Positions 11,243-64,000 of a DNA stretch of 64,000 bases are shown here, in pieces. Numbering within the stretch: position 1 is the stretch's first letter; each line of letters opens with the position of its first letter. This DNA is from Eledone cirrhosa (taxonomy: Eukaryota). The position numbers and the translations under genes were made by a program. The stretch lies in the NCBI GenBank assembly GCA_964016885.1, contig OZ024742.1, positions 112,530,001 to 112,594,000 on the forward strand, in the 5' to 3' direction. The notes beneath the pieces are model-generated. The model had not been told where the DNA came from and made no database searches. It saw only the letters and a program-made list of their open reading frames with translations.

Positions 11243-11675
11243 TTCAAAATATTAACAAGTATAGACATTCGTGTGGTCAAGTATATTTTATTATACATAT
11301 TTCAGATGTACTGAGCTATCTTCAACATTACGTCCTCATCAGATTAAATAAGATGATGATTGACATACCTTGACTAAGTAGATGGTTAACATTCTGTCAT
11401 GGCAAAATTAATTTTAACCATGACGGAATTTTAACCATCTACTTAGACAAGGTATGTCAAACAACATCTTATTTTATCTGATGAGGACGTACTGTTGAAG
11501 ATAGCTCAGTACCTCTGAAATATTTATAATAAGATATACTTGATCACACGAAGGTATATATTTGTTAATATTTTGAATTAATATTAATAACTCCGGAAAA
11601 CCATCGCTGTGGAGTGCTTCTAATCTTTTGTAAAACGTTATTCATTGATTTATTCATTGAACCTTATTTAACCTT

Positions 11676-11680
<5 letters not shown>
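11238..11680 (+). mobile_element. PLE terminal hairpin-plus-tail element in (TA)n
   Basis: Inverted arms 11238-11402 and 11418-11582, unique tail 11583-11680, (TA)n on both sides; each arm carries a HHR. Confidence 0.8.
11470..11536 (+). ncRNA. Type-I hammerhead ribozyme (mirror copy at 11284-11350, minus strand)
   Basis: TATTTTAT-CTGATGA-GGACGTACTG(loop)CAGTACCTCT-GAAA-TATTTA-TA-ATAAGATA: 8-bp stem I, ~10-bp stem II, 2-bp stem III, AUA triplet. Confidence 0.75.
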
Positions 11681-11722
<42 letters not shown>

Positions 11723-11875
11723 AATATGTATAAATCAGTAGAACAAATACTTATTATAATAAGAGATTAAAGTTTAAGTGAAGAATCGCTGGTTTCAATT
11801 TAATATGTTCGTATTATATATACACACATATATATATATATACGTATATATATTATATTATATATATATATATAT

Positions 11876-11987
<112 letters not shown>

Positions 11988-13052
11988 TCCTTTCAACTCT
12001 TGCCACCCTAGACACGTTAAAATTAATATTCCCTACAACTTAGCAAAGATAATCTGTACTGTATTCTCCAATAAAAACAACTGCTACGTACGGCTACAAG
12101 AACTAAAGGACACACTCATAGGCAGAGACTACCCTGCATCACTAATTGGCAATGGAATCCAACGTGCCCTAAAACTCAGTACCCAGGACCTTAGACAGCC
12201 TAAAGTAAAGCAACCCAAACTAAAAGCTCTTCCATACATCTCCACACACAACCACCTCAACAATGAGGCCTTTGACACCATCCTCCAGAACATCCCTGCG
12301 TTGAAAAAGGACCATAGAATGAACCAAATCCTAGGAAGACACGATATCATAAATAGCAAATGACAATCTAAGTCAATGAAAAACATCCTAACACATGCCA
12401 AAGTACTGCCAACCACAACAACGAAACCCACAGTAAACAAATGCGATACACCCAACTGTGGCATTTGCATCAACCTAATAGAGGGTTCGGAATTCTATTT
12501 CAAAGAAGGATAACGTTTTACAGTAAAACACAATTTCACATGCGTATCAGAAAATCTAATATATGTATTAACTTGCTCAGGTTGTCGAGAACAATACATA
12601 GACCAGACCAAAAACAGCATCGGCCAACGCATAGCTGTCCATAGATCCCAAATTAAAATACGGGAATACAGGAAAATACGACTGAGTGAACACATTGATA
12701 CCTGTGCCGCCCAAAATAATCCCAACTTCAGAATCTTTCCCCTCTACAAATTTAAAGATAATGCCACCCACACCCAGCGCATCAGCAAGGAATCTTACTT
12801 TATTAACAAATACGGACCCCGTCTAAACACTTCTCACTAAGACAAACCCACAACATACAGTCGTCCACATACATACCTACATCAGCATACATCTCTACCC
12901 ACATATAAACACAATGACATACGTAAACACACATGTTCTATGGTGCAACACAAATATACACAAATTTGCATACCTTTTGATGTCTATAGATATAAACGTG
13001 CCGACCCACACACATACATAAACGCACACATGCATTGCACGCTGATGGGCAC

Positions 13053-16772: not shown

Positions 16773-19700
16773 TAACGAAGGAATTGTGGTAAGGAACCAG
16801 ATCGACCATCTCGCACCATAGTACTCAATACTAAGTGTAGTAGAGTGGGTAATATGAAAAGAAAAAACCCCGACGGCAGAGCTCAAGCCGTTTCGACGAC
16901 TATTTCTGGACTAAATTAGAATGTTTAATCTGGTAAATAAATAGCCAAACTAATCAAGGGGTACTACCTGATATGGGAAGATAGTAATTGTCAAGAGGAT
17001 TAGTCAAAATTTGTTATAAAGACAAATAAATCTATCATGGCATTTGGTGGGAGATAGGGGTGTCTGAAATTGCCGGTAGAACAAAGAAGGAGTGAAGAAA
17101 GCCAATCAGGGGTTGAAAGTGAAATCTATACAGCAGAAGTTAAGGATAGTGTAAGAAAAGTCGAAAAATTGTTCTGGAGAAAATGAGGAGCGGAGTTGAA
17201 AGAATAGGTAAGTCGAATGGGAGTAAAAAAAAATAAAATAAAATAAAAAAACAAAAAAAATGTATATATAAACAAAGTTAGATAGTGAGAAAAGAATAAA
17301 AAAACAAAAACAGTAGAATCTAGAAACAGCTGCTATAATTAGTAGGTATTGCTAAGCTATAGAAAAGTTTAATAAGTAGAGAATTTAAATAATAAATAAG
17401 AGATTGTAGTTGGTTGTGAAACACAGATGAGGAAGAAGATCGGGGATGGAAGGAAGTGATAGGATGATACGGAGTTTAGAAGGAAGCGTAGAAGAAAAAA
17501 AAAAAAGGTACGGCTACCTATGTAAGCAGGGGTTTCCCCTTACAAATTCGGCAGGTGGGGGTATCAACCCTTGTCTACCAACCCGAGTCGTTATGGGGTT
17601 TGAGGGCGAAGTTAGTCCTACGGAATATGTTTGCATGCGGGTACCAGTTCGTCTTTCTTGTTTAGCAGTTGGTCCTTCGAAAACAGCATTGTAATGTTTC
17701 CTCCGAGAATAAGTTACAAGGACGCAGTCCTCCCGTGTAAGAGTTAGCTCTGGATAGTTAGCTCCAAGTGAAATTGTAGGTAATATTATTATCTTTGATT
17801 TCCCAGATGTTGCCCGAAAGTGTATTGGCATGTCGCCGGACCCGGTTTCGGAAGTATGTCGGTGTTGGTTAGCCGGGTCTTGAGGTCACAAGCGGTTAAT
17901 CCTATATAAGCTTTGTTGGAGGTGTCCGTCCTCACGTTGCACTGGTAGATCACATTACGTTCTCGGCATCTGTTGTTTAGGGGGCGCATGAACCTATCAA
18001 GTCAGTTACACCTCCTGGTCGGCTCTCCACTGATGTCTAGGTTATTTCTTCCATAGAGGTTGAGTTTTTTGTTGTTAGAAGAGACGATGTTTTGTGCGAA
18101 TTTAGGTGTGGTGCTGTAGGAGAGTTTGATGGTATTTTTGTTGCTTATGTTGTGGTAGCGGTGTTGTAGTGGAAAGTGTTTTTCGAGGAGCCTAAAGAAG
18201 ATTTTCCCGATAGGTGTTGCCACCTCGGCATGTGGGGAGGATTGAACAACGTTACCTTGCCTGAACGGCGGTGGTGCCTGCTGGTTCCGCAAATGGAAGC
18301 TGGATAAAAGGATATTTCCTCCCGGAAGTCACTCCGCTTGGAGGCCTGGTTGTAATGAGGCGCATGTTCGTCGGATATATGCTCATTAGCGGACAAACGA
18401 GATATGCGGAGGGAGATGTTTTTAACCAGGTTATTGATGATGTTTCTAGGATGGTTAGAGCGGCGGTGTTCTAATGCAGGTTGTCGTTTGGTTTCCTGTA
18501 TGTCTAGTACAGATCATTTACGAGGTTAAGGGTAACGTCCAGGAAATTTACTCGGGTTAGGGACGTTTGTAGGGTTATTTTAAATCCCCAGTCCCGGAAG
18601 AAGCTGATTAGTTGTTTACGGACCCGATCTGTACTACTGGGGTTGCACCCTTTGAGGTTGGCGAGCCCATCATCGCGGTAAAATCCACCGCCAAATGCAG
18701 GAAACATTTCGGTGAGTTTAAATAGTAGGAATAATCCTATAAGATCTGCGACCTCGGCCGAATCCGTCGCGCCCATCCTGACGTCGAAGGGGGAGTCAGG
18801 AGCTCTCTTTATCCATTTGGAGTTGTCAAAAGGTAGGACTGTCTCCCTGGTGTGGAGAATGAAATTTCTTTCATGGTCTGTGATGGGTGTGAGTGATTCG
18901 GCCAAGTCGAAGGCGGCCGTAAGGAGCGGTAAGGTAATAGATGCATAATAACTCTGTACGTCAAACTGGATGAATTTTGTGTCAAGTTTGTCCTCCATAT
19001 TCCTGAACCATGAGATTACTTCCTGGGTGCTAACCATAGGCTAAGTATCGCGTCTTGCTTAACTTTTGGTATATCGCGGTCGAGGATTTTTTTTACTGAT
19101 TCTCCCTATGTCTGACTTCGTTGGGTTTATAAGCCTGATGGATGGTTTGCGGTCGAAGTCGGATTAGTGGTCCTTCAGTGTGAAGTAGGGAGTCCGTGCG
19201 TCTAGGGGTTCAGTGCGGTCGACGACCCCGAGACTGGACGTAAGTTGCCCATCTCGATTTATGCCCTCGATATTTGAATTGTTAACCTTTTTTATAGGTG
19301 GAGTTTAGGCTGCTTCTGATCAGTGTGTTTTATCTGTCAGGGTTGACCAAGTAAAGGTTTCGAGTTTTGTCCGAGCGCACCATAATGTCGTTGGTGTTTT
19401 CATATTCTGTTATTGTGCTACTGAGTTTTTGTAGGAATCTGTTGTGTCTGGGTTTGCATTTAATGCTATTGACCAGTTGGAAAAGGTCGTTCTCGGAGGA
19501 TGAGAGCATAGGTTTCGAAGGGGGAGATTTGTAGGTATTGAATCCGAATCTCTCCTTGGTATCGAATTCATGATTGTCGTGGTATCTGTTGTAGACAAAA
19601 GTACTCCATCTTAGTATTTTCGCAAACAGGTCGACTTTTGGCGTGAGCATCCGAAGGTAAAGTTTTCTCCGTGGAACTGGGATGTTCTTGGTGGAGAAGC

Positions 19701-20413
19701 TGATGTTGTGTTTTCGCATGGTGGGGGTGAAAAAACTGGAGCTGGGCGGAAATGTCTGGATATGGCGTGGTAGGGTCGGAAAGTGCTCTACTACGGAGAT
19801 AAGAGCTAGATAACGAAGGAATTGTGGTAAGGAAACAGATGGACGATAACGCACCAAAATACTCAATACTAAGTGTAGTAGAGTGGGTAATAGGAAATAT
19901 AATGACTCCGACCGCAGAGCTCAAGCCGTTTCGACGGCTATTTCTGGACTAAATTAGAATGTTTAGCCTGGTAAGTAATACCAGGCTAAAAATTCCAATT
20001 TTACAATTTCTAAATTTCTTTTTACTTGTCTAAAATTATTAACCTGTAATTGTAATTGGCTGATTACGCTTTACTAACTATTTATAGCAGCTGTGTTAGA
20101 CCCCCTGAAAAGTTAGCTTTACATTTTTTCACCACCAACTACAATCTCTTATTTATTATTTTCCATTCTCTACTTATTAAACTTTTCTATTCCTACTAAT
20201 TATAGCAGCTGTTTCTAGACTCGACTGTTTTCGTTTTTTTTATTCTTTTCTCACTATCTAAATTTTTTTTATATATACATTTTTAATTTTAATTTGTTTT
20301 TACTCCCATTCGACTTACCTTTTCTTTAAACTCCGCTCCTCATTTTCGCCAGACAATTTTTTGACTTTTCTTACACTATCCTTAGAATCTGCTGTTTAGA
20401 TTTCACTTTCAAG
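16773..20413 (-). mobile_element. Near full-length Hydra-like PLE pseudo-copy with direct pLTRs and an inverted 3' UTR copy
   Basis: Frameshifted ORF pieces SFSTKNIPVP, IQFDVQSYYASI, FDVRMGATDSAEVADLIG, GGFYRDDGL, VNFLDVTLNL and GIY-YIG VIYQC..AYIGLT..LKTR. Direct repeats at 16773-16936 and 19811-19974; 20133-20413 is the inverse of ~17112-17413. Confidence 0.9.
16867..16962 (-). ncRNA. Type-I hammerhead motif in the PLE 3' pLTR (U3 core, extended stem II)
   Basis: Minus strand ACCCC-TTGATTA-GTTTGGCTATTT...AAATAGTCGTC-GAAA-CGGCTTGAGCTCTGCCG-TC-GGGGT. Perfect stem I and stem III; position 8 is U, probably decayed from A. Confidence 0.65.
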
Positions 20414-24199: not shown

Positions 24200-26230
24200 A
24201 GAGTTCACGGTAATTCCTATGCAGGTTATACTTGGAGTAATAATAGTGAAATAATGAAGAGAAACATGGTTGGCTGTACAATTCTTTCATTGATCAGGTG
24301 AGTCTAGATGTCGCTAATCGCTTGACGTTGCGTCACTCGATCTCCAATACATTATTTACCTCCGATCAAGACATCAGAGTACGTAGATATAAAAATAATT
24401 CACTCGAGGCAAGATATATATAAATGAATAGCGTATAATCAAAACACTAACATCAATAATAAAAAAAAATATGGTAAATAGGTAGAGAATTTACAGACGT
24501 AAAAGGTAAAAAGTAAAAGATAAGATAGGATACATTAAAAACGTAAGAAAATAAGAAAATGGAAAATATAAAGAAATAAATAAGGATAGGTGAGAGCATG
24601 TAAGTACAGAGTATGTTTGTTGTGGTGGTGAGGTGAGGAAGTGTTCTTATAATGATTCTTTGGTGGGTTTAGTGCTAACATGAAAAAACAAAATTCGAAA
24701 TATACATAGATACGTGTAGAGAGTATGATATAGTGACAGATGAAAGAAAAAAGAAAAAGCAATAAATTAGTGATTAATTGAGGGATACACGTATGAGATT
24801 TAATGACTAGGGGTGGATTGTTAAGGGAGGTTTGACAAACGTGTGTTGTAAATGTTTTGCTGATTGTTCTATCTTAATGGGGTTGATGCTGTTTCAGGGA
24901 AAGAGGGTCAAAGAGATGTTCAGAGAATTATGAGGCAGTGACCAGTAGGCCGTTTGACAGTTAATAGCAGTGTGATGGTGTATATTCTATATGCTAAAAT
25001 CTAGGTGGTTCAGTTCTAATTTTGGGATTGCTGCTTCAAATCATGGTGGTTTGAAGTTTGTGAATATGGTAGCTATTTTATGCCTACAGAAAATTGATCT
25101 TTCTATTTCGCCGTTAAGCAGCATCCCATCGTACCTTAACATATGGAGTAGTTCTAAACTACAAAGTCCGCAGTGGGACATCTTGTTGCTGTAGGCCCTT
25201 GCTACGGATAATGTTGACCAGTTAATCTTATATTCTTGTTTTTTTTTGTTTTTAAGCTGGTAGATTTTATTGGCGAGCGTCGTAGAGTTCTCCAATCTAC
25301 GGGTCGTCATGGAGTGTCTGTGCACGTACCACCTTTTTTTGAACTCCTCAGTCGTGGAACCTATGTAGGGCCAATTAGAGTTGCCTGAATATACAGTACA
25401 CAGGTACACCATACTCGAATCCAGGCATCTATATTGTAGTGGGCACTTATCCGGTAGGTGGCAATTACAATTTGAGGCTTTTATGTGTGCAGGTTCTCCG
25501 TTGCGGTTTTGTAAGTTGTTGTGGGTGGGATGTGATTTAGGCCTATTAGTGTTTTGTTGTGATGCGCTCTGGTGTGTTTGTGGTTGTGAAGTTGTTATGT
25601 GTTTGCGTTTTGTATTTGGTGCTATGGTGTATGTTGGTGGGTTACTTTCTTTAGAGATATGTTTGTGGTTGATTTTACGTATGTGTGATTCTATGTTGGC
25701 TGCAGTAGAGTAGGATAATTTTATAGTTTTTCTATTAAATATTCTATGGTATTTGTTCAGTTCAGGTAAGTGCTTGTCGGGTAGTTTAAATAATGTAGCA
25801 GGTAGTTTGGCTTTTATAGAGGAGTTGAATATTAGATTGAACCATAGGTATTTTCTATCTCTGGATCTTCTATAGTTTTGGGGATTCTTATATTAGCGTT
25901 CGGTTCAGTTATTGTTGGTGCTTGTTGTCTAATTCTATGCTTAGTCATATGCTTGATACTTCTATATGAGCGGGTAGTGTTGTTGTCGTTCGGTTTGTTG
26001 TTGCTGTCTCTACCTAATATGTATTCCAGCTTCTCCTTATGTCCAGCCTTATGTAAAGCTATGTTATAATAGTTTGTGTGTTCGTTGAAATGTTCTAGGT
26101 TGGAAGATAGGCGGGATATTCTGAGGGATATACTATGTGCTATGGAGTTAATTATGGATCGGGGGTTGGTTTGAGTTATAACTAATGTGGCTAGATTTTC
26201 GTTATTCTTATGGAAGGGCTCTATTCATCC
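24200..26230 (-). mobile_element. 5'-truncated Hydra-like PLE (thumb, linker, GIY-YIG, 3' UTR)
   Basis: ORF 25041-25412 VYLCTV...YIGSTTEEFKKRWYVH...STTLA...CGLCSLE, preceded by NCNCHLPDKCP (CxCx5C); homologous to the ORF at 33705-35630; 3' boundary approximate. Confidence 0.8.
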
Positions 26231-26870
26231 TGTGTTTAGAAATTTGCAAAAGACATGACAAATCAATATCCAAGTAGGCCGAGAAACAAAAAAAAAATAC
26301 AAAACGGAAAAAAAGTTCATACATTTACCCAAAAGAACACATAATTCTAAACAATCATACAACTAAACTTTCTTTATTTAATAAATGTAAAATCCCTTTT
26401 GGAATATACACTATTATAAAAATGTAAACAAAAGCTTAAGTTACTGAAAAAGATAATAACCAACGCAAAACTGCAAACCGACATGAAGAGGTGCAACGTT
26501 CCTAACTACGGGTTGTGTAACTAACTATGGAAGGCGACGTATTCCACTTCAAATAAGTTCCTATTCTAAATATTAAAAACACCTTCTTGCGCGATTCCGA
26601 AAATGTAATATATATTATAAAATGTAAGGCCTGCTATGAGCTTTACATTGACCAAACCGTAGTAGCTCTTCGAGAAAGAATGACATTTCACTGCCAACAA
26701 ATTAGAGATCCATATAGGAAAAAGAACCCACATAAACAACATTTAGAGGAAAGCGGAGGCCGAACTTTAGAGCATTTCAATGTTTGCATGTCGTAATAAT
26801 GTTGCCAGTGAACTTCAGTGGAATAAATAATTGGCAAATAATTGTTGTTTTATAGAAAACTAAGAAATAT
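26230..26870 (+). mobile_element. Degraded Neptune-like PLE GIY-YIG fragment
   Basis: CNVPNYGLC...DSENVIYIIKCKACYELYIDQT...RMTFHCQQI...QHL. Confidence 0.7.
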
Positions 26871-29900: not shown

Positions 29901-31223
29901 TGAATACGGCGAGAATAACCCGTGTAATTAGGCGTACAATGAGCATGCGCATGTAGATTGGCTAATTTGAGGAAGCGAGGGGTACCCTTCCAAGGTACCC
30001 AGGAAGCGTCAGGTAGTTCCGGAGTGGTGGGGTACCCGAGTTTATCCTGGATGGTAATCTCCCCTATTGGGAAATGTTCATTGTTAGTATTTTTCTTGTT
30101 GATTGTTATTATATATTGTATTGCTTACTCTATGTTTATTTTAAAAAAACAACAGTCACAGCGTATTGTATTGCGCCCTATATGTCCGACCATGTGGCCA
30201 ATAAATGAAAAATATTGTTATCATTATTATGAATATATATATATATATATATATAAAATATTAAATAAATAATGAACAAACAATTCCTTATATTAAACAA
30301 AAAAAGTTCACTATTTAACGATCGTTTCTAGGGCATATATGTGCTATAATTGGTATGCATATTTAACAGATCTATGTACAAAATTATACAAAATTATACA
30401 AATTATCAAGATTAAATATACATACCTAACTCATATATACGCCGTCTTCAGAAATAATGAAGTATATTTATTGATAATAACAACAATTCAAAATATCAGT
30501 TCAAAATTGACCAATGAAAACACAAAGGGTTAAAAAGCAGTTTGGTGTGTGTATATACATGTAAAACCCCACACGCATTTTACAATAATGTGTGTATAAT
30601 ATGTATGTGCATACTAAAAAGATGGATGCAAATAAAAAATTTCAAGGTTAATATCTCTGTAAGCTTAATGCGCTGATAATATACGCAATGATACTTATGT
30701 AGTCAAGCATATAAATATATTTTTTTCATACTCACACATATCAGTATAATCACACATACATGTGCGTATATATATAAATATACACATAACCACGAACACA
30801 CAAACACACACACACCCCCCACTCACATTTATATATGTGGATATAAAATCATAAGCAAATAGAAATTAAGTCACTCACATAAACACACTGGTACACACAT
30901 TTCAAGATCAAGATACAGAAATTAGGTGGGAGGGGGGGGGGAGGGGTCAGTGTTAGGTTGTGAGACCAGACAGCCTAATATAAATGTATCTATAAATTAT
31001 GAAAAATAAAAAAATAAAAACAATAAAATATATTACATATAATATAATGTACATACGCATACAGATATACATACACATACATACATGTACGCGCACATAG
31101 AGATATCTACACATACATACATACACACATACCTATACTGTCATACACACACATACATTTACACGAACATACACATACACATATAAAAAGATAAAAATAC
31201 GGACACACACACGCGCAACACAT

Positions 31224-31272
<49 letters not shown>

Positions 31273-31383
31273 TATACACACACACACATAGACTCATATA
31301 TATATACATACACATACATATACTTATACATAAACATATATATCCCACACTCATACCACCATGAAAACACATACGAACATCCA

Positions 31384-31432
<49 letters not shown>

Positions 31433-31528
31433 ATACACACACGTACACATATATGCATATATACATACACATATACACACATACACATATATACATATAT
31501 ATACACACACACGTAAAATACAGACATG

Positions 31529-31571
<43 letters not shown>

Positions 31572-31663
31572 TTCATTACCCTTATATATACACATAGTAT
31601 ATATACATACACAACCTCACTTATACACATATACACATAAGTTATATTACAATAATAATAAAG

Positions 31664-31702
<39 letters not shown>

Positions 31703-31841
31703 TATACACATATATACAAATATACATACATACACATACATATACATACATACATACGCATACATACATACACCTAAATATAAACATATATAAATACACA
31801 CATACGAATAAAGACATATATTCACACATAGACACCTATAT

Positions 31842-31887
<46 letters not shown>

Positions 31888-31976
31888 ATATACACACACA
31901 TACACATACATACACATATATATATATATATACACATATATACACACGCACACACATACAGACACACATACACACC

Positions 31977-32011
<35 letters not shown>

Positions 32012-33704
32012 ATGTGAGTGTGCGCAAATACATACATATATATATACACACACACATACAAACACACACAAACACATACATATGCATACATGCACACACA
32101 CACACATATATCACATAGATACAAAGATAAACATATAAATAGAGAGACATACAAATATATACAGAACCCATATACACATACATGCAAACACGCATATACA
32201 TATATACATATATACACACATATATATTCCTATATACAAGCATACACATACACACACATATATACATATACCTACACATATATATACCACACATTCACAT
32301 ACACGTACATATATAATACATATATATATACATATATATACATACATATGTATGTACAATCATATATACACACTCAATCTTACATTCATATTTACATGCT
32401 CATATATGTATTTTTATATCTAGAAATAAATACCAAAAAAACTATATAGACACCCATCTACCCATATATTCATACATATACACTTACAAAAACAGATGAT
32501 AATAGTATGGGGGAAAGGGGGGGGGGTTGGAGAAGGGGATCAAAGTAAATATATGTTTCAAGAAACCTATAATATTTTCCATATCTTAATTCAATGTATG
32601 TTCTTACATATTTTCAATGTTAGGAAATACGAAATCTATGCATCACAAAATAAAAAAGTATACCATTAATCATATGTCAACTAAACCAAAGATAGTCAAC
32701 ATATTGATTTCCAAGGTGTAAATTAGTTAGGTTTATAATATTTGAAGCAGAATTATGAAGTCAAACAGTAGTAGATTATTAATTACATTATAACTAAATT
32801 AAAGTTAATAATAGGGAAAAGAAACCCAAATAAAAATAAAATAAATTATTACATCGGTAGTAGCATATAAATTATATGTTAACTAAGTTAAAAATTATAT
32901 ATTTATTTCAATAGTATATGTTAATTAGTATATGTTAATTAGGTATACAATACATAAAGCAGATATTGTATTTCATCAATAGCATAATATAATTATATGC
33001 AAATAAAAATCAAAATTAATACGCATACACATACATATACATACACATACACATACGTATACATATACATACACATATATATATATATATATATACATAT
33101 ATATACACACATACATACATATATAGTCACATAAATATACATACAGATACACATACAATACACACATATACATATACATATAGATATACATATCTTTTTC
33201 AAAAAATCTGCACAGAATATATTAACTAGGTATATATCCAAAAACACCTCCCATTCTATGATTACATGAAATTTTGCAATTCGTCTGTACAAGGATACTA
33301 ATTTTAAGCAAATTAAAATTAAAATTAAAGTTTTAGGTTGATTAAAGCTAAAACCAAATAATAAATATATTTCCAAAATGTATATTAATTAGGTCAATAA
33401 TACTAAAAATTCTTTCTCCGTCATAGGATACATGATATTATTTTGTTATATTTTATCTGTAAAAGAATTATAATAAAAAAAATTTTATAATAAAGGTTAA
33501 ACTAAATTAAAAAATTATAATAAAAGGTTAAAATAAGTTAAAATTAATCTATAAATTAAATTACTGAATATATATTAGTAATATTTAAAGGTTTTTCAAA
33601 ATTAATGATTACATAATATTTTCTCATCTGTAATAAAATATTAATTAAATTAAATTTATAGGTTAACTAACATTTAAATTAAATTAAATTCTAGAATAAT
33701 GTTA

Positions 33705-35630
33705 TTAATTAGGTTTATAATATTTAAATGTTTTTTTTAGTTTATGATTACACGATATAATTAATTCCTGTCTTTTATTTAATAAGATATCCCTAGACTT
33801 CATTATTTCAAATAGTTCTTGGGAACATAATCTACATTCCTTTCTATTATTTTGATAAGGGGTGGCTCTTTTGAGCACACTCCAGGTCAAATCATATTTT
33901 ATATTTTTATTTTTATAACTATTGATTTTTTCTGCTAGAGATGTTGTATTAGCCAGTGCGGCATTTTTAAAGCTATGTTTGTGGGTATTATACCTTGTCT
34001 TAAAATTGTTAGAGGTAGCTCCTATATATGAGCAAATAGAATCTTTAGTTTTAACATTACATTTATAGACTATGTTGTTAACAAGACAATTCCCTTTTAA
34101 TGGGCAGTTTGTTTTGTTTCTACAGTTACATCCTTTCGTTAATTCTGTATTTGAGGAGATATTATTGTTAATTTGATGTACTGGTGGTATACTTATAGTT
34201 TTCTTACATTTATATGCATTATATGCACTTATATTTTGTTTTATGTTATTTGTTGTAGAATATGAGAATTTAACTGTAGACCTATTTAAGATTTGATGGT
34301 ATTTGTGGTTTGGCGGGAAGTTTTTCTCAAGGATATAAAAAAATTTTTTAGCAATATTATCCTTAACTTGTAAATTAAAAGGAGCATTATACCAAGTAAC
34401 TCGTCTATTACGGTTTCTATGTTGTTTATTATTTTTATTATTTTTATATGTTGTATCATGATTTTTACTAGGAGGAATAATGTTAATGATCTCACCACAA
34501 CTATTTTTAGTTATATTTGTAGATTTAGGTGTTTTATCTTTTTTATTAGGAGTTTTATTATTAATATTTATTATAGTCTTATGATGAGTAGTTTTTTGAG
34601 GGTTACTATACTTTATATTAGAAGATTTAGTATTTTGGGGTATACTGTGGGTGGCATTTAGGTGTGTACCTTTCATTTGGTGTTTGTTGGTAATATTATG
34701 CTGTATGTTTTCAGTATTTTTAGTAGAAGTTATATACTCTAATCTATTTTTGTGGCCACTTCTATCTAGAGCTTCATTATAAAAGGTCGCATTTTTATCA
34801 AATACATCTTGGTTAGAAGAAAGGTTAGAAATTCTAAGTGATATATTATATGCAAGGTTTTTAAGGATAGATTTAGGGTGATTAGATTGTGAGTGTATGT
34901 AATGTAAGTTTTGGTTAGGTTTATGGTAAGGTTGGTATATACCCGTAGCTAAATCTAAAGTTATATCTAGGAAATTTACTACTTTACTTGTTTTTTCAAA
35001 AGTAATATTAAGATTATAATAGTCCTTAAGGAAAGTTCTAATATGCTTTTTGTTTTTTTCAATTTCTGAAAGGCTAAGGTTGTTAGAAAGAAGAAGACAG
35101 TCATCACGATATAAACCACCTTTGAGGTGGGGAAAAGAGGCATTTATGTTGAAAAGGAGAAAGAGGCCCACAAGATCAGTAATTTGGGCAGAATCGCTTG
35201 AACCCATAGTAATATCAAAAAGATTACTATAAGTGTTTCTGGTCCAGTATTCATTCTGAAATTCAATAAGTGTTTGTCTAGCATGTGTAATAATGTTAAT
35301 GTCATCCGAAGTTAAATTAGATCTATTTTTAGCAAATATTAATGCTTTGTTCAGGAGTATGGGTGATATAGAAGAATAATAGTTATCTATATCGAACTGT
35401 AGGAAAGAAGCAGAAGATTTACACCTAATATTTTTAAACCAATTAATTACCTGGGAGGTGTTTTCCCAGAGTGGTAAAATAACGTATTTTCTTATTTGTG
35501 GGATGACTCTATCTAAAATTTTTTTGCTAATTATTCCAATATCTGATTTGGAAGGACATATAAGTCTAATAGAAGGATTAGAGTTAAAGTTAGATTTGTG
35601 ATCTTTCAGGTTGAATTGTGGACTTCTCAA
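33705..35630 (-). CDS. PLE reverse transcriptase plus GIY-YIG endonuclease, uninterrupted but N-terminally truncated (641 codons)
   Basis: LKDHK..RLICPSKSDIG, QFDIDNYYSSI, FDITMGSSDSAQITDLVG, GLYRDD, VNFLDITLDL, linker CNCRNKTNC (CxCx5C), IVYKC..YIGATSNNFKTRY..H, CRLCSQE. The region equivalent to the STKNIP N-terminus is absent, so the TTG start is probably not real. Confidence 0.92.
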   Translation of the reverse strand: MRSPQFNLKDHKSNFNSNPSIRLICPSKSDIGIISKKILDRVIPQIRKYVILPLWENTSQVINWFKNIRCKSSASFLQFDIDNYYSSISPILLNKALIFAKNRSNLTSDDINIITHARQTLIEFQNEYWTRNTYSNLFDITMGSSDSAQITDLVGLFLLFNINASFPHLKGGLYRDDCLLLSNNLSLSEIEKNKKHIRTFLKDYYNLNITFEKTSKVVNFLDITLDLATGIYQPYHKPNQNLHYIHSQSNHPKSILKNLAYNISLRISNLSSNQDVFDKNATFYNEALDRSGHKNRLEYITSTKNTENIQHNITNKHQMKGTHLNATHSIPQNTKSSNIKYSNPQKTTHHKTIININNKTPNKKDKTPKSTNITKNSCGEIINIIPPSKNHDTTYKNNKNNKQHRNRNRRVTWYNAPFNLQVKDNIAKKFFYILEKNFPPNHKYHQILNRSTVKFSYSTTNNIKQNISAYNAYKCKKTISIPPVHQINNNISSNTELTKGCNCRNKTNCPLKGNCLVNNIVYKCNVKTKDSICSYIGATSNNFKTRYNTHKHSFKNAALANTTSLAEKINSYKNKNIKYDLTWSVLKRATPYQNNRKECRLCSQELFEIMKSRDILLNKRQELIISCNHKLKKTFKYYKPN

Positions 35631-37252
35631 TGCTAATATTATGCTAATATTATGTAATCATTAATTTTGAAAAACCTTTAAATATTACTAATATATATTC
35701 AGTAATTTAATTTATAGATTAATTTTAACTTATTTTAACCTTTTATTATAATTTTTTAATTTAGTTTAACCTTTATTATAAAATTTTTTTTATTATAATT
35801 CTTTTACAGATAAAATATAACAAAATAATATCATGTATCCTATGACGGAGAAAGAATTTTTAGTATTATTGACCTAATTAATATACATTTTGGAAATATA
35901 TTTATTATTTGGTTTTAGCTTTAATCAACCTAAAACTTTAATTTTAATTTTAATTTGCTTAAAATTAGTATCCTTGTACAGACGAATTGCAGAATTTCAT
36001 GTAATCATAGAATGGGAGGTGTTTTTGGATATATACCTAGTTAATATATTCTGTGCAGATTTTTTGAAAAAGATATGTATATCTATATGTATATGTATAT
36101 GTGTGTATTGTATGTGTATCTGTATGTATATTTATGTGACTATATATGTATGTATGTGTGTATATATATGTATATATATATATATATATATGTGTATGTA
36201 TATGTATACGTATGTGTATGTGTATGTATATGTATGTGTATGCGTATTAATTTTGATTTTTATTTGCATATAATTATATTATGCTATTGATGAAATACAA
36301 TATCTGCTTTATGTATTGTATACCTAATTAACATATACTAATTAACATATACTATTGAAATAAATATATAATTTTTAACTTAGTTAACATATAATTTATA
36401 TGCTACTACCGATGTAATAATTTATTTTATTTTTATTTGGGTTTCTTTTCCCTATTATTAACTTTAATTTAGTTATAATGTAATTAATAATCTACTACTG
36501 TTTGACTTCATAATTCTGCTTCAAATATTATAAACCTAACTAATTTACACCTTGGAAATCAATATGTTGACTATCTTTGGTTTAGTTGACATATGATTAA
36601 TGGTATACTTTTTTATTTTGTGATGCATAGATTTCGTATTTCCTAACATTGAAAATATGTAAGAACATACATTGAATTAAGATATGGAAAATATTATAGG
36701 TTTCTTGAAACATATATTTACTTTGATCCCCTTCTCCAACCCCCCCCCCTTTCCCCCATACTATTATCATCTGTTTTTGTAAGTGTATATGTATGAATAT
36801 ATGGGTAGATGGGTGTCTATATAGTTTTTTTGGTATTTATTTCTAGATATAAAAATACATATATGAGCATGTAAATATGAATGTAAGATTGAGTGTGTAT
36901 ATATGATTGTACATACATATGTATGTATATATATGTATATATATGTATTATATATGTACGTGTATGTGAATGTGTGGTATATATATGTGTAGGTATATGT
37001 ATATATGTGTGTGTATGTGTATGCTTGTATATAGGAATATATATGTGTGTATATATGTATATATGTATATGCGTGTTTGCATGTATGTGTATATGGGTTC
37101 TGTATATATTTGTATGTCTCTCTATTTATATGTTTATCTTTGTATCTATGTGATATATGTGTGTGTGTGTGCATGTATGCATATGTATGTGTTTGTGTGT
37201 GTTTGTATGTGTGTGTGTATATATATATGTATGTATTTGCGCACACTCACAT

Positions 37253-37287
<35 letters not shown>

Positions 37288-37376
37288 GGTGTGTATGTGT
37301 GTCTGTATGTGTGTGCGTGTGTATATATGTGTATATATATATATATATGTGTATGTATGTGTATGTGTGTGTATAT

Positions 37377-37422
<46 letters not shown>

Positions 37423-37561
37423 ATATAGGTGTCTATGTGTGAATATATGTCTTTATTCGTATGTGTGTATTTATATATGTTTATATTTAGGTGTATGTAT
37501 GTATGCGTATGTATGTATGTATATGTATGTGTATGTATGTATATTTGTATATATGTGTATA

Positions 37562-37600
<39 letters not shown>

Positions 37601-37692
37601 CTTTATTATTATTGTAATATAACTTATGTGTATATGTGTATAAGTGAGGTTGTGTATGTATATATACTATGTGTATATATAAGGGTAATGAA

Positions 37693-37735
<43 letters not shown>

Positions 37736-37831
37736 CATGTCTGTATTTTACGTGTGTGTGTATATATATGTATATATGTGTATGTGTGTATATGTGTATG
37801 TATATATGCATATATGTGTACGTGTGTGTAT

Positions 37832-37880
<49 letters not shown>

Positions 37881-37991
37881 TGGATGTTCGTATGTGTTTT
37901 CATGGTGGTATGAGTGTGGGATATATATGTTTATGTATAAGTATATGTATGTGTATGTATATATATATGAGTCTATGTGTGTGTGTGTATA

Positions 37992-38040
<49 letters not shown>

Positions 38041-38807
38041 ATGTGTTGCGCGTGTGTGTGTCCGTATTTTTATCTTTTTATATGTGTATGTGTATGTTCG
38101 TGTAAATGTATGTGTGTGTATGACAGTATAGGTATGTGTGTATGTATGTATGTGTAGATATCTCTATGTGCGCGTACATGTATGTATGTGTATGTATATC
38201 TGTATGCGTATGTACATTATATTATATGTAATATATTTTATTGTTTTTATTTTTTTATTTTTCATAATTTATAGATACATTTATATTAGGCTGTCTGGTC
38301 TCACAACCTAACACTGACCCCTCCCCCCCCCCTCCCACCTAATTTCTGTATCTTGATCTTGAAATGTGTGTACCAGTGTGTTTATGTGAGTGACTTAATT
38401 TCTATTTGCTTATGATTTTATATCCACATATATAAATGTGAGTGGGGGGTGTGTGTGTGTTTGTGTGTTCGTGGTTATGTGTATATTTATATATATACGC
38501 ACATGTATGTGTGATTATACTGATATGTGTGAGTATGAAAAAAATATATTTATATGCTTGACTACATAAGTATCATTGCGTATATTATCAGCGCATTAAG
38601 CTTACAGAGATATTAACCTTGAAATTTTTTATTTGCATCCATCTTTTTAGTATGCACATACATATTATACACACATTATTGTAAAATGCGTGTGGGGTTT
38701 TACATGTATATACACACACCAAACTGCTTTTTAACCCTTTGTGTTTTCATTGGTCAATTTTGAACTGATATTTTGAATTGTTGTTATTATCAATAAATAT
38801 ACTTCAT

Positions 38808-38952
38808 TATTTCTGAAGACGGCGTATATATGAGTTAGGTATGTATATTTAATCTTGATAATTTGTATAATTTTGTATAATTTTGTACATAGATCTGTTA
38901 AATATGCATACCAATTATAGCACATATATGCCCTAGAAACGATCGTTAAATA
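38808..38952 (+). ncRNA. Type-I hammerhead with ~116-nt stem II (mirror copy at 30312-30456, minus strand)
   Basis: TATTT-CTGAAGA-CGGCGTATAT...GGTATGTATATTTAA...TTAAATATGCATACC...ATATATGCCCTA-GAAA-CGATCG-TT-AAATA; palindromic stem III ACGAUCGU, GUU site. Confidence 0.7.
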
Positions 38953-39142
38953 GTGAACTTTTTTTGTTTAATATAAGGAATTGTTTGTTCATTATTTATT
39001 TAATATTTTATCTTCACTCTGTATACCGTTTATCTTTCACCGAAATTGGATTTTCATTACATCTCTTCTTTCCATGATATCCGGAATACATTGAGTTCTT
39101 CATACGGATTGGACACTACCGTAAACTCTTGGTAGATTTATC

Positions 39143-39187
<45 letters not shown>

Positions 39188-40735: not shown

Positions 40736-41600
40736 CTAATGTAATGGTACGCGATTGGGCCCACCCACAGCCTCGGCGGACAGAATGGAGAAGGCGTTTC
40801 CCAGGAGGACGGCAAGGAAGACGCGCTGGAAAAGCCACTCCAACTCGCGGGGCTCACACCTACGGCGGGCCAGCTCAGCGCCTATGGTGGTGAGTAAGGA
40901 GGTAGCCCTGGGGCCGAGGACCCAAGAAGTTTCCACTGCCAGGGGAAGGACCGCAAACCTGTCGGAGAACGACCGGTATTTGAGGAGTTTGGCTCCCTCA
41001 GCTCGACGTGCAGCAGAACCTGGGTCAGTCGCAGACTGCACCAGTTTGCGGCTGCACAAAGTGTCGGTGCAAGTGGCATCCCAGAGGAGGGGTTTGCCAC
41101 CGCGGAATGGGAAGATGGTCATGCCATCTGGCCGTTTGCCGTCCTCTCGATCCAGCCCCACCGGTTTGAGCTGAGAGGGAAGTCTGCAGTGTCCAAGCCA
41201 TGCTTATGACCTCCTTGAGGGCAGTATGGTGTGGAATGCAGCCGGTACTGTGGCGACAGGAAAGCGGGTGGAGGCGGAAGAGTCCACGGTGGAATCGCAG
41301 CGACATTGGTGTGGCTGGCAGTTCCGACGCCAGAGCCTCAAGGAAACGCCTATTCGCAGGCTATGTTTGTCTAGCTGCGTGCCAGTGGAGAAGGAGGGTA
41401 GAGCATGGAGCCAGGCCCCATTGTGGGGTTTGGAGGTCGTACGAAAACAAGCAATGCGGTGCTGGTCGAACTGGCGCCTGAGGCTGTCTGAGGCCAGGTT
41501 GCACTGGATGGCATCCCAAGTGCGTTGAGGGCACTTGACTTCAACAGAGGAAGAAGGAGGAGGGACGTCTACTGGGCTAAGTCCCAGCCGGTCCCACGTC
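40736..41600 (-). mobile_element. CRE-clade non-LTR retrotransposon 3' fragment (Zn knuckle plus restriction-like endonuclease)
   Basis: GAWLHALP, LRIGVSLRL, CRC...HPLSC, DGKRPDGMTIFPFRGGKPLLWDATCTDT, PLAVET, LFQRVFLAVLLGNA; GC-rich; frameshifted. Confidence 0.85.
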
Positions 41601-41799
41601 TCACTGGTGGTCTCACGTTCTCTGAACACAGAGGGTTCTGTTGTGTTTTGAAGAAAAGTTATATATATTTGTGTAATGCTTGATATAGTAAGGGTTGAGG
41701 ATGTCAAGGTCCTGTTAAAGTCTCTGTTAACGGCTTAATGGTTTTAGTAGTGCACAGAATAATATATTAATAATTTGGAATTTTCAGAAGTATTAAATC

Positions 41800-45745: not shown

Positions 45746-45785
45746 CATATTTATATACCTATATATATATATATATATATATATA

Positions 45786-46326
45786 TGTAAGTATGTATGT
45801 ATACGTACATACATATATGTATACAGACGTACAGTAGCATGCATATATATACACATATATATATACATATATATACACATATGCATACAGGTACACATAC
45901 ATATATGCACGCATCAGTTTAGCCGACGTTTATTATAACGCCGGCCGCTTTGTTCGTTTGTTTGTCAACAAACCGAAAAGCCTGAATTTATGCCATACGG
46001 TGTTAAGGCAACCACGTCACCTTTTTGTTCAACACTGACACAGGAGCGATGTATTAGTTTCAAGCTTGTTAGCTATCATCATCACCGTTTACCCATCTGC
46101 CAGATAGTTGAACGTTCGAAAGTATATACTTTCCTTATGAAAATTAACGGCTGAGCAGCCTAATTTGCAGATTGAGTGAGTTAAATCGGTCAGGCATACC
46201 GAAAACGATAAGCTGAAAAAAATGAAAACGAAATTTGATTTCTCACTCTTAATATGGCACTTACTTAAATGTAAGTATGTATGTATACGTACATACATAT
46301 ATGTATACAGACGTACAGTAGCATGC

Positions 46327-46369
<43 letters not shown>

Positions 46370-47410
46370 TATATATATACACATATGCATACAGGTACAC
46401 ATACATATATGCACGCATCAGTTTAGCCGACGTTTATTATAACGCCGGCCGCTTTGTTCGTTTGTTTGTCAACAAACCGAACAGCCTGAATTTATGCCAT
46501 ACGGTGTTAAGGCAACCATGTCACCTTTTAGTTCAACACTGATACGGGAACGATGTACTAGTTTCAAGCTTGTTAGCTATCATCAGCACCGTTTACTCAT
46601 CTGCCAGATAGTTGAACGTTCGAAAGTATATACTTTCCTTATGAAAATTAACGGCTGAGCAGCCTAATTTGCATATTGAGTGAGTTAAATCGGTCTGGCA
46701 TACCGAAAACGATAAGTTGAAAAAAATGAAAACGAAATTTCATTTCTCACTCTTAGTATGGCACTTACTAAACTGTAAGTATGTATGTATACGTACATAC
46801 ATATATGTATACAGACGTACAGTAGCATGCATATATATACACACATATATATATATATATATATATACATATATATACACATATGCATACAGGTACACAT
46901 ACATATATGCACGCATCAGTTTAGCCGACGTTCATTATAAGGCCGGCCGCTTTGTTCGTTTGTTTGTCAACAAACCGAACAGCCTGAATTTATGCCATAC
47001 TGTGTTACGGCAACCACGTCACCTTTTTGTTCAACACTTGAAACTAGTACATCGTTCAAAGCTTGAAACTAGTAAATCGTTCCTGTGTCAGTGTTGAACA
47101 AAAAGGTGAGTGGTTGCCTTAACACCGTATGGCATAAATTCAGGCTGTTCGGTTTGTTGACAAACAAACGAACAAAGCGGCCGGCGTTATAATAAACGTC
47201 GGCTAAACTGATGCGTGCATATATGTATGTGTACCTGTATGCATATGTGTATATATATGTATATATATATATATATATGTGTGTATATATATGCATGCTA
47301 CTGTACGTCTGTATACATATATGTATGTACGTATACATACATACTTACATTTAAGTAAGTGCCATACTAAGAGTGAGAAATGAAATTTCGTTTTCATTTT
47401 TTACAACTTA
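45786..47410 (-). mobile_element. Second HHR-bearing tandem array (~484-504-bp units, 2.5 copies) plus a ~350-bp inverted copy
   Basis: Units start at 45786, 46270 and 46774; inverted segment ~47060-47410; internal (TA)n length varies between units. Confidence 0.85.
46549..46593 (-). ncRNA. Minimal type-I hammerhead ribozyme
   Basis: Minus strand AACGGTG-CTGATGA-TAGCTAACAAGCTT-GAAA-CTAG-TA-CATCGTT: 7-bp stem I, palindromic ACUAGU, GUA site. The copy at ~46045-46089 has C3A and a stem III change. Confidence 0.8.
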
Positions 47411-47548
47411 TATATATATATATATATAATGGTAGATATATCGAAGAGATAGAACAACACCTGTCCGTACGACGTGTCTTAATTTATTGTTTTTTTGGTC
47501 AGTTACTACAATATTACTAAATGGCACTGTTGTAGTAACCGGTTTAGA

Positions 47549-56743: not shown

Positions 56744-56777
<34 letters not shown>

Positions 56778-56812
56778 ATAATAATAATAATAATAATAGT
56801 AATAATAATAAA

Positions 56813-59800: not shown

Positions 59801-60383
59801 GTAAGCATTTTGACCCGCCCCATCAAAAGAATTGGTGGGAGCATCAACCACCTCCCATACTTGAAAAAGATCACATCTCAATCTTGTGGAACTTTAGCAT
59901 CCAAACAGACCGAAAATTAGATGCAAATAGACCTGATATAATATTGAAGGACTTTCAAAGGAGGGTATGCCTGCTAATTGATATGTCTGTTCCAATAGAC
60001 AAGAATGTATCTCTAAAAACATTTGAAAAATTGAGCAAGTATAAGGACCTGGAGATAGAAATTGGAAAAATGTGGAAATTGAGAACTAAAACAATACCAG
60101 TGGTTGTAGGCGCTCTGGGAATGATACCTAAGGGGTCTAACGACTACTTATCGCAAATCCCAGGAAACCGGCGTATAGGAGAAATACAAAAGATAGTACT
60201 AATGGGAACTGCCCATATACTAAGGAAGATCCTGTCAATATAAGTACATCACAAGTCTAAACAATAAGGATGCATGTGTGAATATGTATGATCTTTCCTG
60301 AACATGGCGGACCTTGTTGTCTCTTGAGGTCACTGGTTGTGACTTGGTGATAACTCGTAGAAACATAAAGCAAGATAAATGCA

Positions 60384-60385: not shown

Positions 60386-60448
<63 letters not shown>

Positions 60449-60450
<2 letters not shown>

Positions 60451-63400: not shown

Positions 63401-64000
63401 AATACATACATTGGATAATGTGTAAGCATTTTGACGTGCCCCATCAAAAGAATTGGTGGGAGCATCAACCACCTCCCATACTTGAAAAAGATCACATCTC
63501 AATCTTGTGGAACTTTAGCATCCAAACAGACCGAAAAATAGATGCAAATAGACCTGATATAATATTGAAGGACTTTAAAATGAGGTTATGCCTGCTAATT
63601 GATATGTCTGTTCCAATACACAAGAATGTATCTCTAAAAACATTTGAAAAATTGAGCAAGTATAAGGACCTGGAGATAGAAATTGGAAAAATGTGGAAAT
63701 TGAGAACTAAAACAATACCAGTGGTTGTAGGCGCCCTGGGAATGATACCTAAGGGGTCTAATGATTACTTATCGCAGATCCCAGGAAACTCGCGTATAGG
63801 AGAAATACAAAAGATAGTACTAATGGGAACTGCCCATATACTAAGGAAGATTCTGTCAATATAAGTACATCACAAGTCTAAACACTAAAGATGCATGTGT
63901 GAGTATGTATGTTCTTCCTTGAACATGGCGGACCTTGTTGTCTCTTGAGGTCTATGGTTGAGACTTGGTGATAACTCGTATGAACATAAAGCAAGATAAA
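60449..64000 (+). mobile_element. Dong/R4-clade non-LTR retrotransposon, copy 2 (frameshifted; 3' UTR runs to window edge)
   Basis: Colinear with copy 1, ORF stop at 63864, same 3' UTR stem GACCTTG..TGAGGTC; separated from copy 1 by (TAA)n at 60385-60448. Confidence 0.92.

What the first reader, a model, noticed from the sequence alone, without database searches (positions are those of the whole stretch)
30253..39147. 8.9-kb giant hairpin PLE: open RT-EN ORF between two near-identical 3.37-kb inverted arms
Seen: arms 30253-33620 and 35646-39011 differ, as far as I could see, by one substitution (RIAK vs RIAE in the ORF track) and a 2-bp microsatellite slip despite dozens of unstable repeats. 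The ORF has no stops, only the right arm has the 136-bp tail, and there is an 11-bp duplication ATGCTAATATT at the inversion junction (35630-35651). Known: PLEs often have inverted 5' pLTRs, typically hundreds of bp. Inference: a very recent insertion from an active family, formed from two oppositely oriented cDNAs joined by microhomology; if transcribed it would form kilobases of dsRNA (an ADAR or siRNA substrate).
Basis: partly seen in the sequence, partly recalled or inferred. Interest (0 to 1): 0.72.

Follow-up and report, generated by a model that had tools for sequence, protein, structure and literature searches.

The report
Penelope hairpins record likely RNA circle
This 8.9-kb hairpin is a real but ordinary, front-truncated copy of a young, abundant Penelope-type jumping gene, and the ends of its thousands of sister copies suggest that both sides of a DNA cut were likely copied from one RNA, probably a 6.2-kb circle that would be closed after its own ribozyme cuts it.

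Summary
Observation confirmed: the arms differ by one substitution and one 2-bp slip, only one carries the 136-bp tail, and the 11-bp junction duplication is there. But the stop-free ORF lacks the first 170 of 813 residues and has no start codon, so this copy cannot encode the full enzyme. It belongs to a young Hydra-clade Penelope-like family (6,188-bp unit, 3,457-bp microsatellite-rich 3'UTR, long-loop hammerhead missed by Rfam). Its size is ordinary here: 23 of 62 two-armed copies span 5 kb or more. Family-wide, tailed and tail-less ends are 3,893 and 3,875, and 62 of 62 two-armed copies have exactly one tail, which fits priming at two fixed RNA sites. Copying stops at one base (likely the RNA start) on 1,000 of 2,152 first passes but on 5 of 230 later passes. 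This points to a circular full-length template, proposed in print in 2014 and not shown in the papers I found. The scan had already reported twin priming, twin hairpins and small-RNA circles on other DNA of this genome. I saw no lap test for an autonomous element in the notes returned. dsRNA would need outside read-through and is untested.

The parts
30233..30252 (.). (TA)n target, left side
   Evidence: the boundary is ambiguous by 2-3 nt of TA microhomology
30253..33620 (-). Left arm: family 3'UTR (unit positions U2816-6188), ending at the fixed tail-less end U6188; microsatellite-rich
   Evidence: the tail-less end pattern occurs 3,875 times in the genome
30307..30461 (-). Predicted type I hammerhead ribozyme, left copy; likely RNA start at 30458, facing outward
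   Evidence: mirror copy of the right motif
33621..33704 (-). Start of the 3'UTR, present once (part of the 2.0-kb loop of the hairpin)
33705..35633 (-). 5'-truncated Hydra-clade RT / GIY-YIG ORF (family aa 172-813), with an N/K/T-rich linker 119 aa long against a median of 24.5 aa (50 of 116 proteins measurable); no start codon
35634..35645 (.). 12-nt junction insert (T, then the first 9 nt of the right arm, then CT), which makes the 11-bp tandem duplication 35630-35651
35646..39011 (+). Right arm: inverted second copy of the 3'UTR (U2816-6188)
38803..38957 (+). Predicted type I hammerhead: stem I 38803-38812 / 38948-38957, core CTGAAGA 38813-38819, extended stem II of about 110 nt, GAAAC 38936-38940, palindromic stem III, predicted cut after 38947
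   Evidence: fold z = -5.18, 0 of 200 shuffles as stable; core invariant and stems I-II kept across 31 haplotypes; not found by Rfam
38806..38806 (+). U5983: family-wide stop point of first-pass cDNAs, likely the RNA 5' end
   Evidence: 56 of 120 stopped arms end exactly here and 8 go 1-4 nt further
39012..39147 (+). 136-bp tail: first part of the family 5'UTR (U1-136), holding bulged stem 1 (39016-39023 paired with 39087-39096)
   Evidence: the tailed end pattern occurs 3,893 times
39148..39183 (.). (TA)n target, right side; the first 3 nt are shared with the element

Best explanation
This is a recent, front-truncated, two-armed insertion of a Hydra-clade Penelope-like retrotransposon, likely made when the element's enzyme cut both strands of a TA repeat and primed two cDNAs at two fixed sites 136-139 nt apart on one RNA, probably a 6,188-nt circle that the predicted hammerhead would release and a ligase would close. 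Steps: (1) Shown: the unit, its two fixed ends, one tail per two-armed insertion, (TA)n targets, and arms that carry one haplotype. (2) From the literature: the RT of an anole PLE starts at two internal sites that bound the tail and extends both strands in vitro (PMC11167929). (3) Inferred: each start is set 4-8 nt before a bulged stem (NCTC...TT-GAGN). (4) Inferred: transcription starts at U5983; priming on this linear leader runs off after about 205 and 345 nt and gives the 550-bp mini-hairpins. (5) Inferred: cutting at two successive hammerheads frees one unit-length RNA that is circularised; priming on the circle has no end to run off and gives arms of any length and arrays of several laps; the trailing RT must displace the other cDNA. 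(6) Inferred: the two cDNA ends were joined by end-joining with slippage; here they stopped at U806 and U2816. My odds: twin priming about 0.8, circular template for long arms about 0.55-0.6.
For: One-tail rule: 62 of 62 head-to-head pairs among 191 listed ends on C1 1-99.3 Mb are tail plus no-tail; label shuffles gave mean 31 and maximum 46 in 100,000. The rule also held in 18 of 18 two-armed loci with both ends seen (counted by eye), and in 25 of 37 minis with both ends callable, with no two-tail or no-tail pair and 12 not callable. Totals 3,893 against 3,875. Either arm can be the longer, and tail-only arms (L096, L097, L116, L126, L141, L143, L144) share nothing with their partner. One template: 0.28 substitutions/kb within insertions (33 of 43 pairs had none) against 3.5/kb between loci, on unmasked sites. 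Lap test: 1,000 of 2,152 first passes stop between U5987 and U5972, against 5 of 230 passes made after a full lap (Fisher p = 8e-50). The stop is sharp, and the structure just upstream is weak, -2.5 to -4.0 kcal/mol, against -35.7 for stem II, which RT passes. Private differences in 8 three-unit sets are spread evenly, 10:10:10, with no excess in the second lap. Hammerhead fold and conservation. The same bulged stem can be read by eye in the printed Hydra-2_Amil sequence.
Against: No RNA evidence at all: no circle, cut or transcript was seen. In the anole element, hammerhead mutants did not affect insertion in vitro, no RNA-seq reads ended at the cut site, and no difference in start site between strands was seen (PMC11167929); nothing there enforces one tail per insertion. 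A weak hairpin does end exactly at U5983 and competes with stem I in the longer RNA, so a first-pass-only stall is not excluded. Cap evidence is weak: G precedes U5983 in 9 of 26 clean cases against 2 of 20 inner insert bases, and re-copying of the downstream GA explains several. Arms starting at the predicted cut are few, and the pattern is confounded by stem I microhomology (51 junctions). The 10:10:10 test includes one edge artefact and mostly 1-2-bp repeat slips that may be sequence errors; substitutions alone are 2:3:4. Bulged stem 2 is not the lowest-energy fold (-26.0 against -26.3) and shows no covariation in the 12 leader variants seen.
Confidence: 0.5

Rival explanations
1. Twin priming as above, but on linear RNA. 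U5983 is a first-pass stall (structure or bound protein) or a strong-stop point with efficient strand transfer, and long arms and arrays come from read-through transcripts of tandem source loci.
For: Frangieh et al. favour unprocessed multi-copy RNA and found the hammerhead dispensable in vitro. Tandem loci exist as possible sources. A weak hairpin ends at U5983. Several tail arms stop at U75-89, on bulged stem 1, so stalls do occur.
Against: If U5983 is the start site, transcripts of one-and-a-part-unit loci should end there on the second pass, yet 225 of 230 go on. Second-lap ends show no other pile-up in the loci read. There is no excess of second-lap differences. The hairpin is far weaker than structures that are passed.
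Confidence: 0.3
2. Self-priming or fold-back: one cDNA (or an antisense RNA) folds back and copies itself, and the endonuclease later trims the tail from one end.
For: Proposed in PMC3846280 (passages) and, for the tail, in PMC8557442. It explains identical arms and palindromic junctions.
Against: Tail-only arms share no sequence with their partner. In this window the short arm carries a tail that the long arm lacks, and across loci either arm can be the tailed one. Tail-less ends are also common in one-armed copies.
Confidence: 0.1
3. An older insertion whose arms were homogenised by gene conversion, which hides its age.
For: Inverted repeats can convert each other (general knowledge, recalled).
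Against: The ORF, which lies in the unpaired loop, scores the same as the self-match against two units on C4 over 1,981 bp. Directly repeated units are as identical as inverted ones.
Confidence: 0.05
4. Assembly artefact (fold-back chimera or mis-join).
For: Long inverted repeats are hard to assemble. No read or contig spanning the inner junction was seen (short-read contigs only).
Against: The two flanks differ, the ends are asymmetric and family-specific, both sit in (TA)n, there is a 2.0-kb loop, and the arms differ at two places. The same architecture obeys one rule at 62 of 62 loci.
Confidence: 0.03

Closest known systems
Hydra clade of C-terminal EN+ PLEs (Craig et al. 2021, PMC8557442), e.g. 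Hydra-1_Obim, Hydra-2_Amil, Penelope-13_HM
   Same: RW-K/R, DKT, CxCX5C, CxxC and CxH motifs, C-terminal GIY-YIG type endonuclease, (TA)n targets, a type I hammerhead about 70 nt before the 3' end, an inverted 5'-truncated copy (966 nt in Penelope-13_HM).
   Different: Unit 6,188 bp against listed lengths of 1,080-3,045 bp; 3,457-bp 3'UTR, 35% of it alternating purine-pyrimidine runs; tail 136 nt against 30-40; hammerhead stem II region about 110 nt against about 10-25 in the listed Hydra motifs; N/K/T-rich linker about 95 aa longer.
Penelope of Drosophila virilis and Poseidon of Anolis carolinensis (PMC2377424, PMC11167929)
   Same: Partial tandems, large inverted repeats of variable size, a start site inside the pLTR, two RT start sites bounding the tail, both strands cut and extended in vitro.
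   Different: Different clade. Neither paper, in the parts read, gives a one-tail-per-insertion rule or a circular template; the anole hammerhead was dispensable in vitro.
Circular-template model for PLEs (Cervera and de la Pena 2014, PMC4209133) and non-LTR retrozymes (PMC7229834; bioRxiv 10.64898/2026.07.22.740005)
   Same: Hammerhead with a palindromic stem III suited to dimer cleavage; proposed ligation to a circle and more-than-unit reverse transcription.
   Different: There the circle is a proposal for autonomous PLEs and is shown only for 170-400-nt non-coding RNAs. Here the unit is a 6.2-kb coding element and the evidence is a genome-wide lap test.
L1 twin priming (recalled, no call)
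   Same: Two target ends prime on one RNA and give an inversion.
   Different: L1 products are non-overlapping and the internal site is not fixed; here both sites are fixed and the same RNA stretch is copied twice.

Membership tests
Hydra-clade PLE | Single ORF with RT and C-terminal GIY-YIG endonuclease | tested here: met
   813-aa ORF with RT motifs and YIGAT at aa 707; matches Hydra-1_Obim motif by motif by eye. Pfam gave no RT or GIY-YIG hit for the truncated protein.
Hydra-clade PLE | RWK motif, and DKG changed to DKT | tested here: met
   RWR at aa 37 (K to R) and DKT at aa 115 in the full-length copy; both are missing from the truncated window copy
Hydra-clade PLE | CxCX5C linker; CxxC and CxH around the conserved E and N | tested here: met
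   CNCRNKTNC at 673, CRLC at 771, CNH at 799
Hydra-clade PLE | CCHH motif absent from the endonuclease | not tested
   No alignment with CCHH-bearing PLE endonucleases was made
Hydra-clade PLE | Insertion into (TA)n | tested here: met
   Both window ends; outer ends of the loci picked by ORF match run into TA-type repeats. The genome-wide end patterns require TA, so they do not test this.
Hydra-clade PLE | Canonical type I hammerhead near the 3' end | tested here: inconclusive
   Core, stems I-III and position are met, but stem II is about 110 nt, Rfam misses it, and cleavage was not assayed
Hydra-clade PLE | Generally short (<3 kb) | tested here: not met
   Unit 6,188 bp. The paper gives this as a tendency, not a diagnostic.
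Hydra-clade PLE | Placement in the RT phylogeny | not tested
   Reference sequences of the other clades were not held as session sequences, so no tree was built
EN+ PLE insertion structure | Partial tandems, inverted 5'-truncated copy, tail at one end | tested here: met
Autonomous (functional) copy | Full-length ORF behind an upstream pLTR | tested here: not met
   The window copy lacks aa 1-170 and the 5'UTR
Retrozyme-like circular replicon | Unit-length circular RNA detected | not testable with these tools
   No RNA run could be laid

The most novel reading that the evidence does not exclude
An autonomous, protein-coding Penelope-like element transposes through a 6.2-kb circular RNA released by its own long-loop hammerhead and copied from two fixed start sites into both ends of a cut TA repeat. 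The linear precursor gives only the mini-hairpins. This would supply the missing mechanism for pLTR and tandem regeneration and for the inverted, one-tailed structure, and the long 3'UTR would seed new (TA)n targets with each long copy.
Probability: 0.45. Interest if true: 0.8.

Novelty: new variant of a known kind. Interest (0 to 1): 0.52.

Why it matters
How PLEs make their tandem and inverted forms, and what their hammerheads do, are stated as open in print (PMC8557442; PMC2377424; PMC11167929). This family gives counts that separate the models and names exact bases to test: start U5983, cut U6121/6122, primers U6188 and U136-139. It has also likely left several hundred near-perfect palindromes of 5-17 kb in one genome (about 900 by extrapolation), which bears on genome stability, repeat annotation and possible dsRNA. 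Each full 3'UTR carries seven (TA)n runs of 20-44 bp. The window copy itself is ordinary.

Tried and rejected
Rfam scans of the locus and of the full pLTR-leader junction gave only microRNA-like matches to microsatellites, all below gathering score, and no hammerhead; the motif was found by eye and by folding. Pfam gave no significant family for the truncated ORF. Sequencing runs: no RNA holder listed, which is no evidence on expression. Logan contigs of four runs cover the family ORF, but no listed piece or joint bridges the inner junction; short-read contigs cannot show absence. The outer junctions were not examined with reads. The all-against-all BLAST timed out and was replaced by mapping to one real copy and pairwise alignment. 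Self-nesting in the family's own TA runs: two first tests found none; a BLAST test found 2 of 138 flanks, both sides of one insertion on C21, so it happens but is not shown to be enriched. Cap-derived G and starts at the ribozyme cut were suggestive only. No host exon was identified among 125 of 220 candidate ORFs scanned (those of 60 aa or more), which does not exclude an intron. Rejected: host DNA captured as arms (they are family 3'UTR); a functional copy (truncated); an antisense hammerhead (no core). An empty-site search was not run. No structure or complex prediction was run. Literature searches. None returned a demonstration of a full-length PLE circle or a one-tail rule, but most subscription journals and bioRxiv supplements are not covered.
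Full report
Observation. Self-BLAST and pairwise alignment give arms at 30253-33620 and 35646-39011, 3,368 columns, with one substitution (33274/35992) and one 2-bp indel (32320-21). The slip is private to the left arm when compared with two close relatives. The 650-codon frame at 33705-35657(-) has no stop. The 136-bp tail is on the right only, both ends abut (TA)n, and the 11-bp duplication is at 35630-35651.

The family. A DNA search of the 3.0-Gb own genome gave 3,791 candidates; 40 were scored, and the top matches are about 100% identical over 1,981 bp. I fetched 27 regions around them and used one real copy on C4 as ruler (U). The unit is 6,188 bp: tail U1-136, ATG U290, an 813-aa ORF ending at U2731, then a 3,457-bp 3'UTR, 35% of it alternating purine-pyrimidine runs, with seven (TA)n runs of 20-44 bp. 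The window holds U806-6188 on the minus strand and U2816-6188 plus tail on the plus strand. The arms are therefore the element's own 3'UTR, and the tail is the start of its 5'UTR. The window ORF equals family aa 171-813; it lacks the RWR and DKT motifs and any start codon before the RT core, so this copy cannot make the full protein. I did not identify the host; earlier scan notes call it octopus-like, which I did not test.

Clade. Section 11 of PMC8557442 (read in full) defines Hydra by RWK, DKT, CxCX5C, CxxC and CxH motifs, (TA)n targets, a canonical hammerhead and a length mostly under 3 kb. The protein motifs are met, and the protein follows the printed Hydra-1_Obim sequence by eye (supplement finds). 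A search found 114 unnamed relatives at E <= 1e-20; the linker before the WxNxPF motif is 119 aa against a median of 24.5 aa among the 50 of 116 proteins where both motifs were found. No tree was built. The length is twice that of any listed Hydra element (supplement part 2 of 59).

Hammerhead. Rfam found none. By eye, 38803-38957 holds stem I, CTGAAGA, an extended stem II of about 110 nt, GAAAC and a palindromic stem III. Free folding gives this topology (z = -5.18; 0 of 200 shuffles as stable). Over 31 haplotypes from 106 copies the core never varies, and changes in stems I-II mostly keep pairing, largely through G-U, with one G-C to A-U swap and two positions of the distal stem II that break in some copies. 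Cleavage is untested. Palindromic stem III motifs that work as dimers are described for PLEs (PMC4209133, passages).

Is this copy special? No. Exact patterns count 3,893 tailed ends and 3,875 tail-less ends next to TA, 302 tails that continue into the 5'UTR and 828 mini head-to-head junctions. On C1 1-99.3 Mb, 124 of 191 listed ends form 62 head-to-head pairs within 30 kb; 67 ends are unpaired. Of the 62, 34 span under 1 kb, 23 span 5 kb or more and 11 span 9 kb or more. Extrapolated, that is about 5,200 insertions and about 900 two-armed ones of 5 kb or more (inference). Within-insertion differences average 43 substitutions and 105 indels in 178,421 columns over 43 pairs, so one and one in 3,366 is the norm. 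Large inverted repeats of variable size are already described for D. virilis Penelope (PMC2377424, passages), and the inverted copy with a one-sided tail is the standard scheme (PMC8557442, passages).

Age. Arms made in one event start out identical, so one substitution in 3,366 sites means recent; it may be an RT error. With the octopus calibration quoted in PMC13282606 (0.09 per 25 My; passages) it would be about 40,000 years, with an upper bound near 200,000; whether that rate applies here is untested. The sub-variant of the 3' end that the window carries has 24 exact tail-less ends.

How the two arms arise. All 62 pairs have one tailed and one tail-less end (shuffles: mean 31, maximum 46 of 100,000). 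Either arm may be longer, and in seven of 60 tail-selected loci a tail-only arm faces an arm with which it shares nothing. This excludes simple fold-back, the self-priming idea of PMC3846280 (passages), unless extra trimming is assumed. Units within one insertion share a haplotype (0.28 against 3.5 substitutions/kb). PMC11167929 (parts 1-2 of 4 read) shows two internal RT starts bounding the tail, extension of both strands and a predicted dimer, but no strand difference. I wrote the twin-priming reading before consulting the scan; the scan had reported it on other families of this genome. From note e1-8837782 I took the twin-hairpin idea and checked it. Stem 1 (U5-12 with U76-85) is in the lowest-energy fold; stem 2 (U143-149 with U252-260) is within 0.3 kcal/mol of it. 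The two ends lie 4-8 nt before these stems, and the tail is long because stem 1 encloses about 65 nt. Covariation for stem 2 was not available.

The lap test. Arms pile up at U5983: 56 of 120 stopped arms end exactly there and 8 go 1-4 nt further (this set was partly chosen for such junctions). Among tailed ends next to the target, 2,152 reach U5987 and 1,152 go on to U5972. Among tails reached after a full lap, 230 reach U5987 and 225 go on. If U5983 is the start site, as an in-pLTR start in D. virilis suggests, linear transcripts would end there on a later pass, with or without strand transfer. A template with no end fits: two successive hammerhead cuts release exactly one unit, which closed into a circle holds both start stems. 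In eight three-unit sets the private differences fall 10:10:10, as expected for laps of one template; this is weak, because most are repeat slips and one is an edge artefact. Against the circle: no RNA data; the anole hammerhead is dispensable in vitro; a weak hairpin ends at U5983; cap and cut-site signals are ambiguous. The circle was proposed in PMC4209133 and is shown only for small retrozymes (PMC7229834, passages; bioRxiv 10.64898/2026.07.22.740005, abstract and Discussion; its supplements are closed). Searches returned no demonstration for an autonomous PLE. Scan notes reported rolling-circle footprints for 310-470-nt elements; I saw no lap test for a coding element among the notes listed, and none near this window or matching its end sequence.

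This junction. Arm A ends at 35633 and arm B starts at 35646. The 12 nt between are T, the first 9 nt of arm B, and CT, which reads as a join followed by slippage back onto ATG (inferred). True microhomology is at most 2 nt.

dsRNA. The likely start sites at 30458 and 38806 face outward, so the element would transcribe flanks, not the hairpin (inferred). A hairpin RNA needs read-through; no host exon was identified, and no RNA run was available. Untested.

Artefact. Not tested with long reads; short-read contigs did not bridge the inner junction. The asymmetry and the family-wide rule make an artefact unlikely.

Verdict. A real, recent, truncated copy, ordinary for its family. The family is a long, microsatellite-laden variant of the Hydra clade whose insertion counts make the open question of PLE integration directly testable. 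New variant of a known kind; interest 0.52.

Noticed in passing
window 56772-60379 and 60409-64000: Two tandem 3.6-kb copies (95% identical) of a frameshifted non-LTR retrotransposon with what looks like a C-terminal restriction-like endonuclease (label recalled).
   Followed up: no
window 17674-19719 (-) and 25047-26239 (-): Two older, broken relatives of the same Hydra-type protein, 33-47% identical.
   Followed up: partly
window 11342-12641: Head-to-head hammerhead-like cores at 11342 (-) and 11478 (+) next to a Penelope-like ORF fragment.
   Followed up: no
window 45782-47411: Direct repeats of about 770 bp and a 700-bp palindrome (93%) with a hammerhead-like core at 46586 (-), ending in (TA)n; likely another two-armed insertion.
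   Followed up: no
window 26557-26793 (+): GIY-YIG fragment, Pfam E = 0.00024, below the curated cut-off.
   Followed up: no
window 40739-41734 (-): Broken ORF pieces resembling a CRE-type retrotransposon endonuclease (label recalled).
   Followed up: no
G000:C21:5756182-5776565 (L038-L040): A 15.9-kb two-armed copy inserted into a (TA)n run in the 3'UTR of an older copy of the same family.
   Followed up: partly
G000:C6:86219533-86231458; C7:31864879-31875734; C3:330775424-330798578: Palindromes with essentially no spacer (5.9-kb and 5.4-kb arms) and a 23-kb insertion with a 17-kb arm of 2.8 laps.
   Followed up: partly
L104 (G000:C1:23581576-23589876): The first 13 nt after the stop point U5983 are repeated three times at the junction, like repeat addition at a template end.
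   Followed up: no
runs X5 and X6 (organisms B and C): Contigs of two other organism labels hold close relatives of the ORF, up to 98-99% alike over 200-290 bp; close kin or transfer was not resolved.
   Followed up: no
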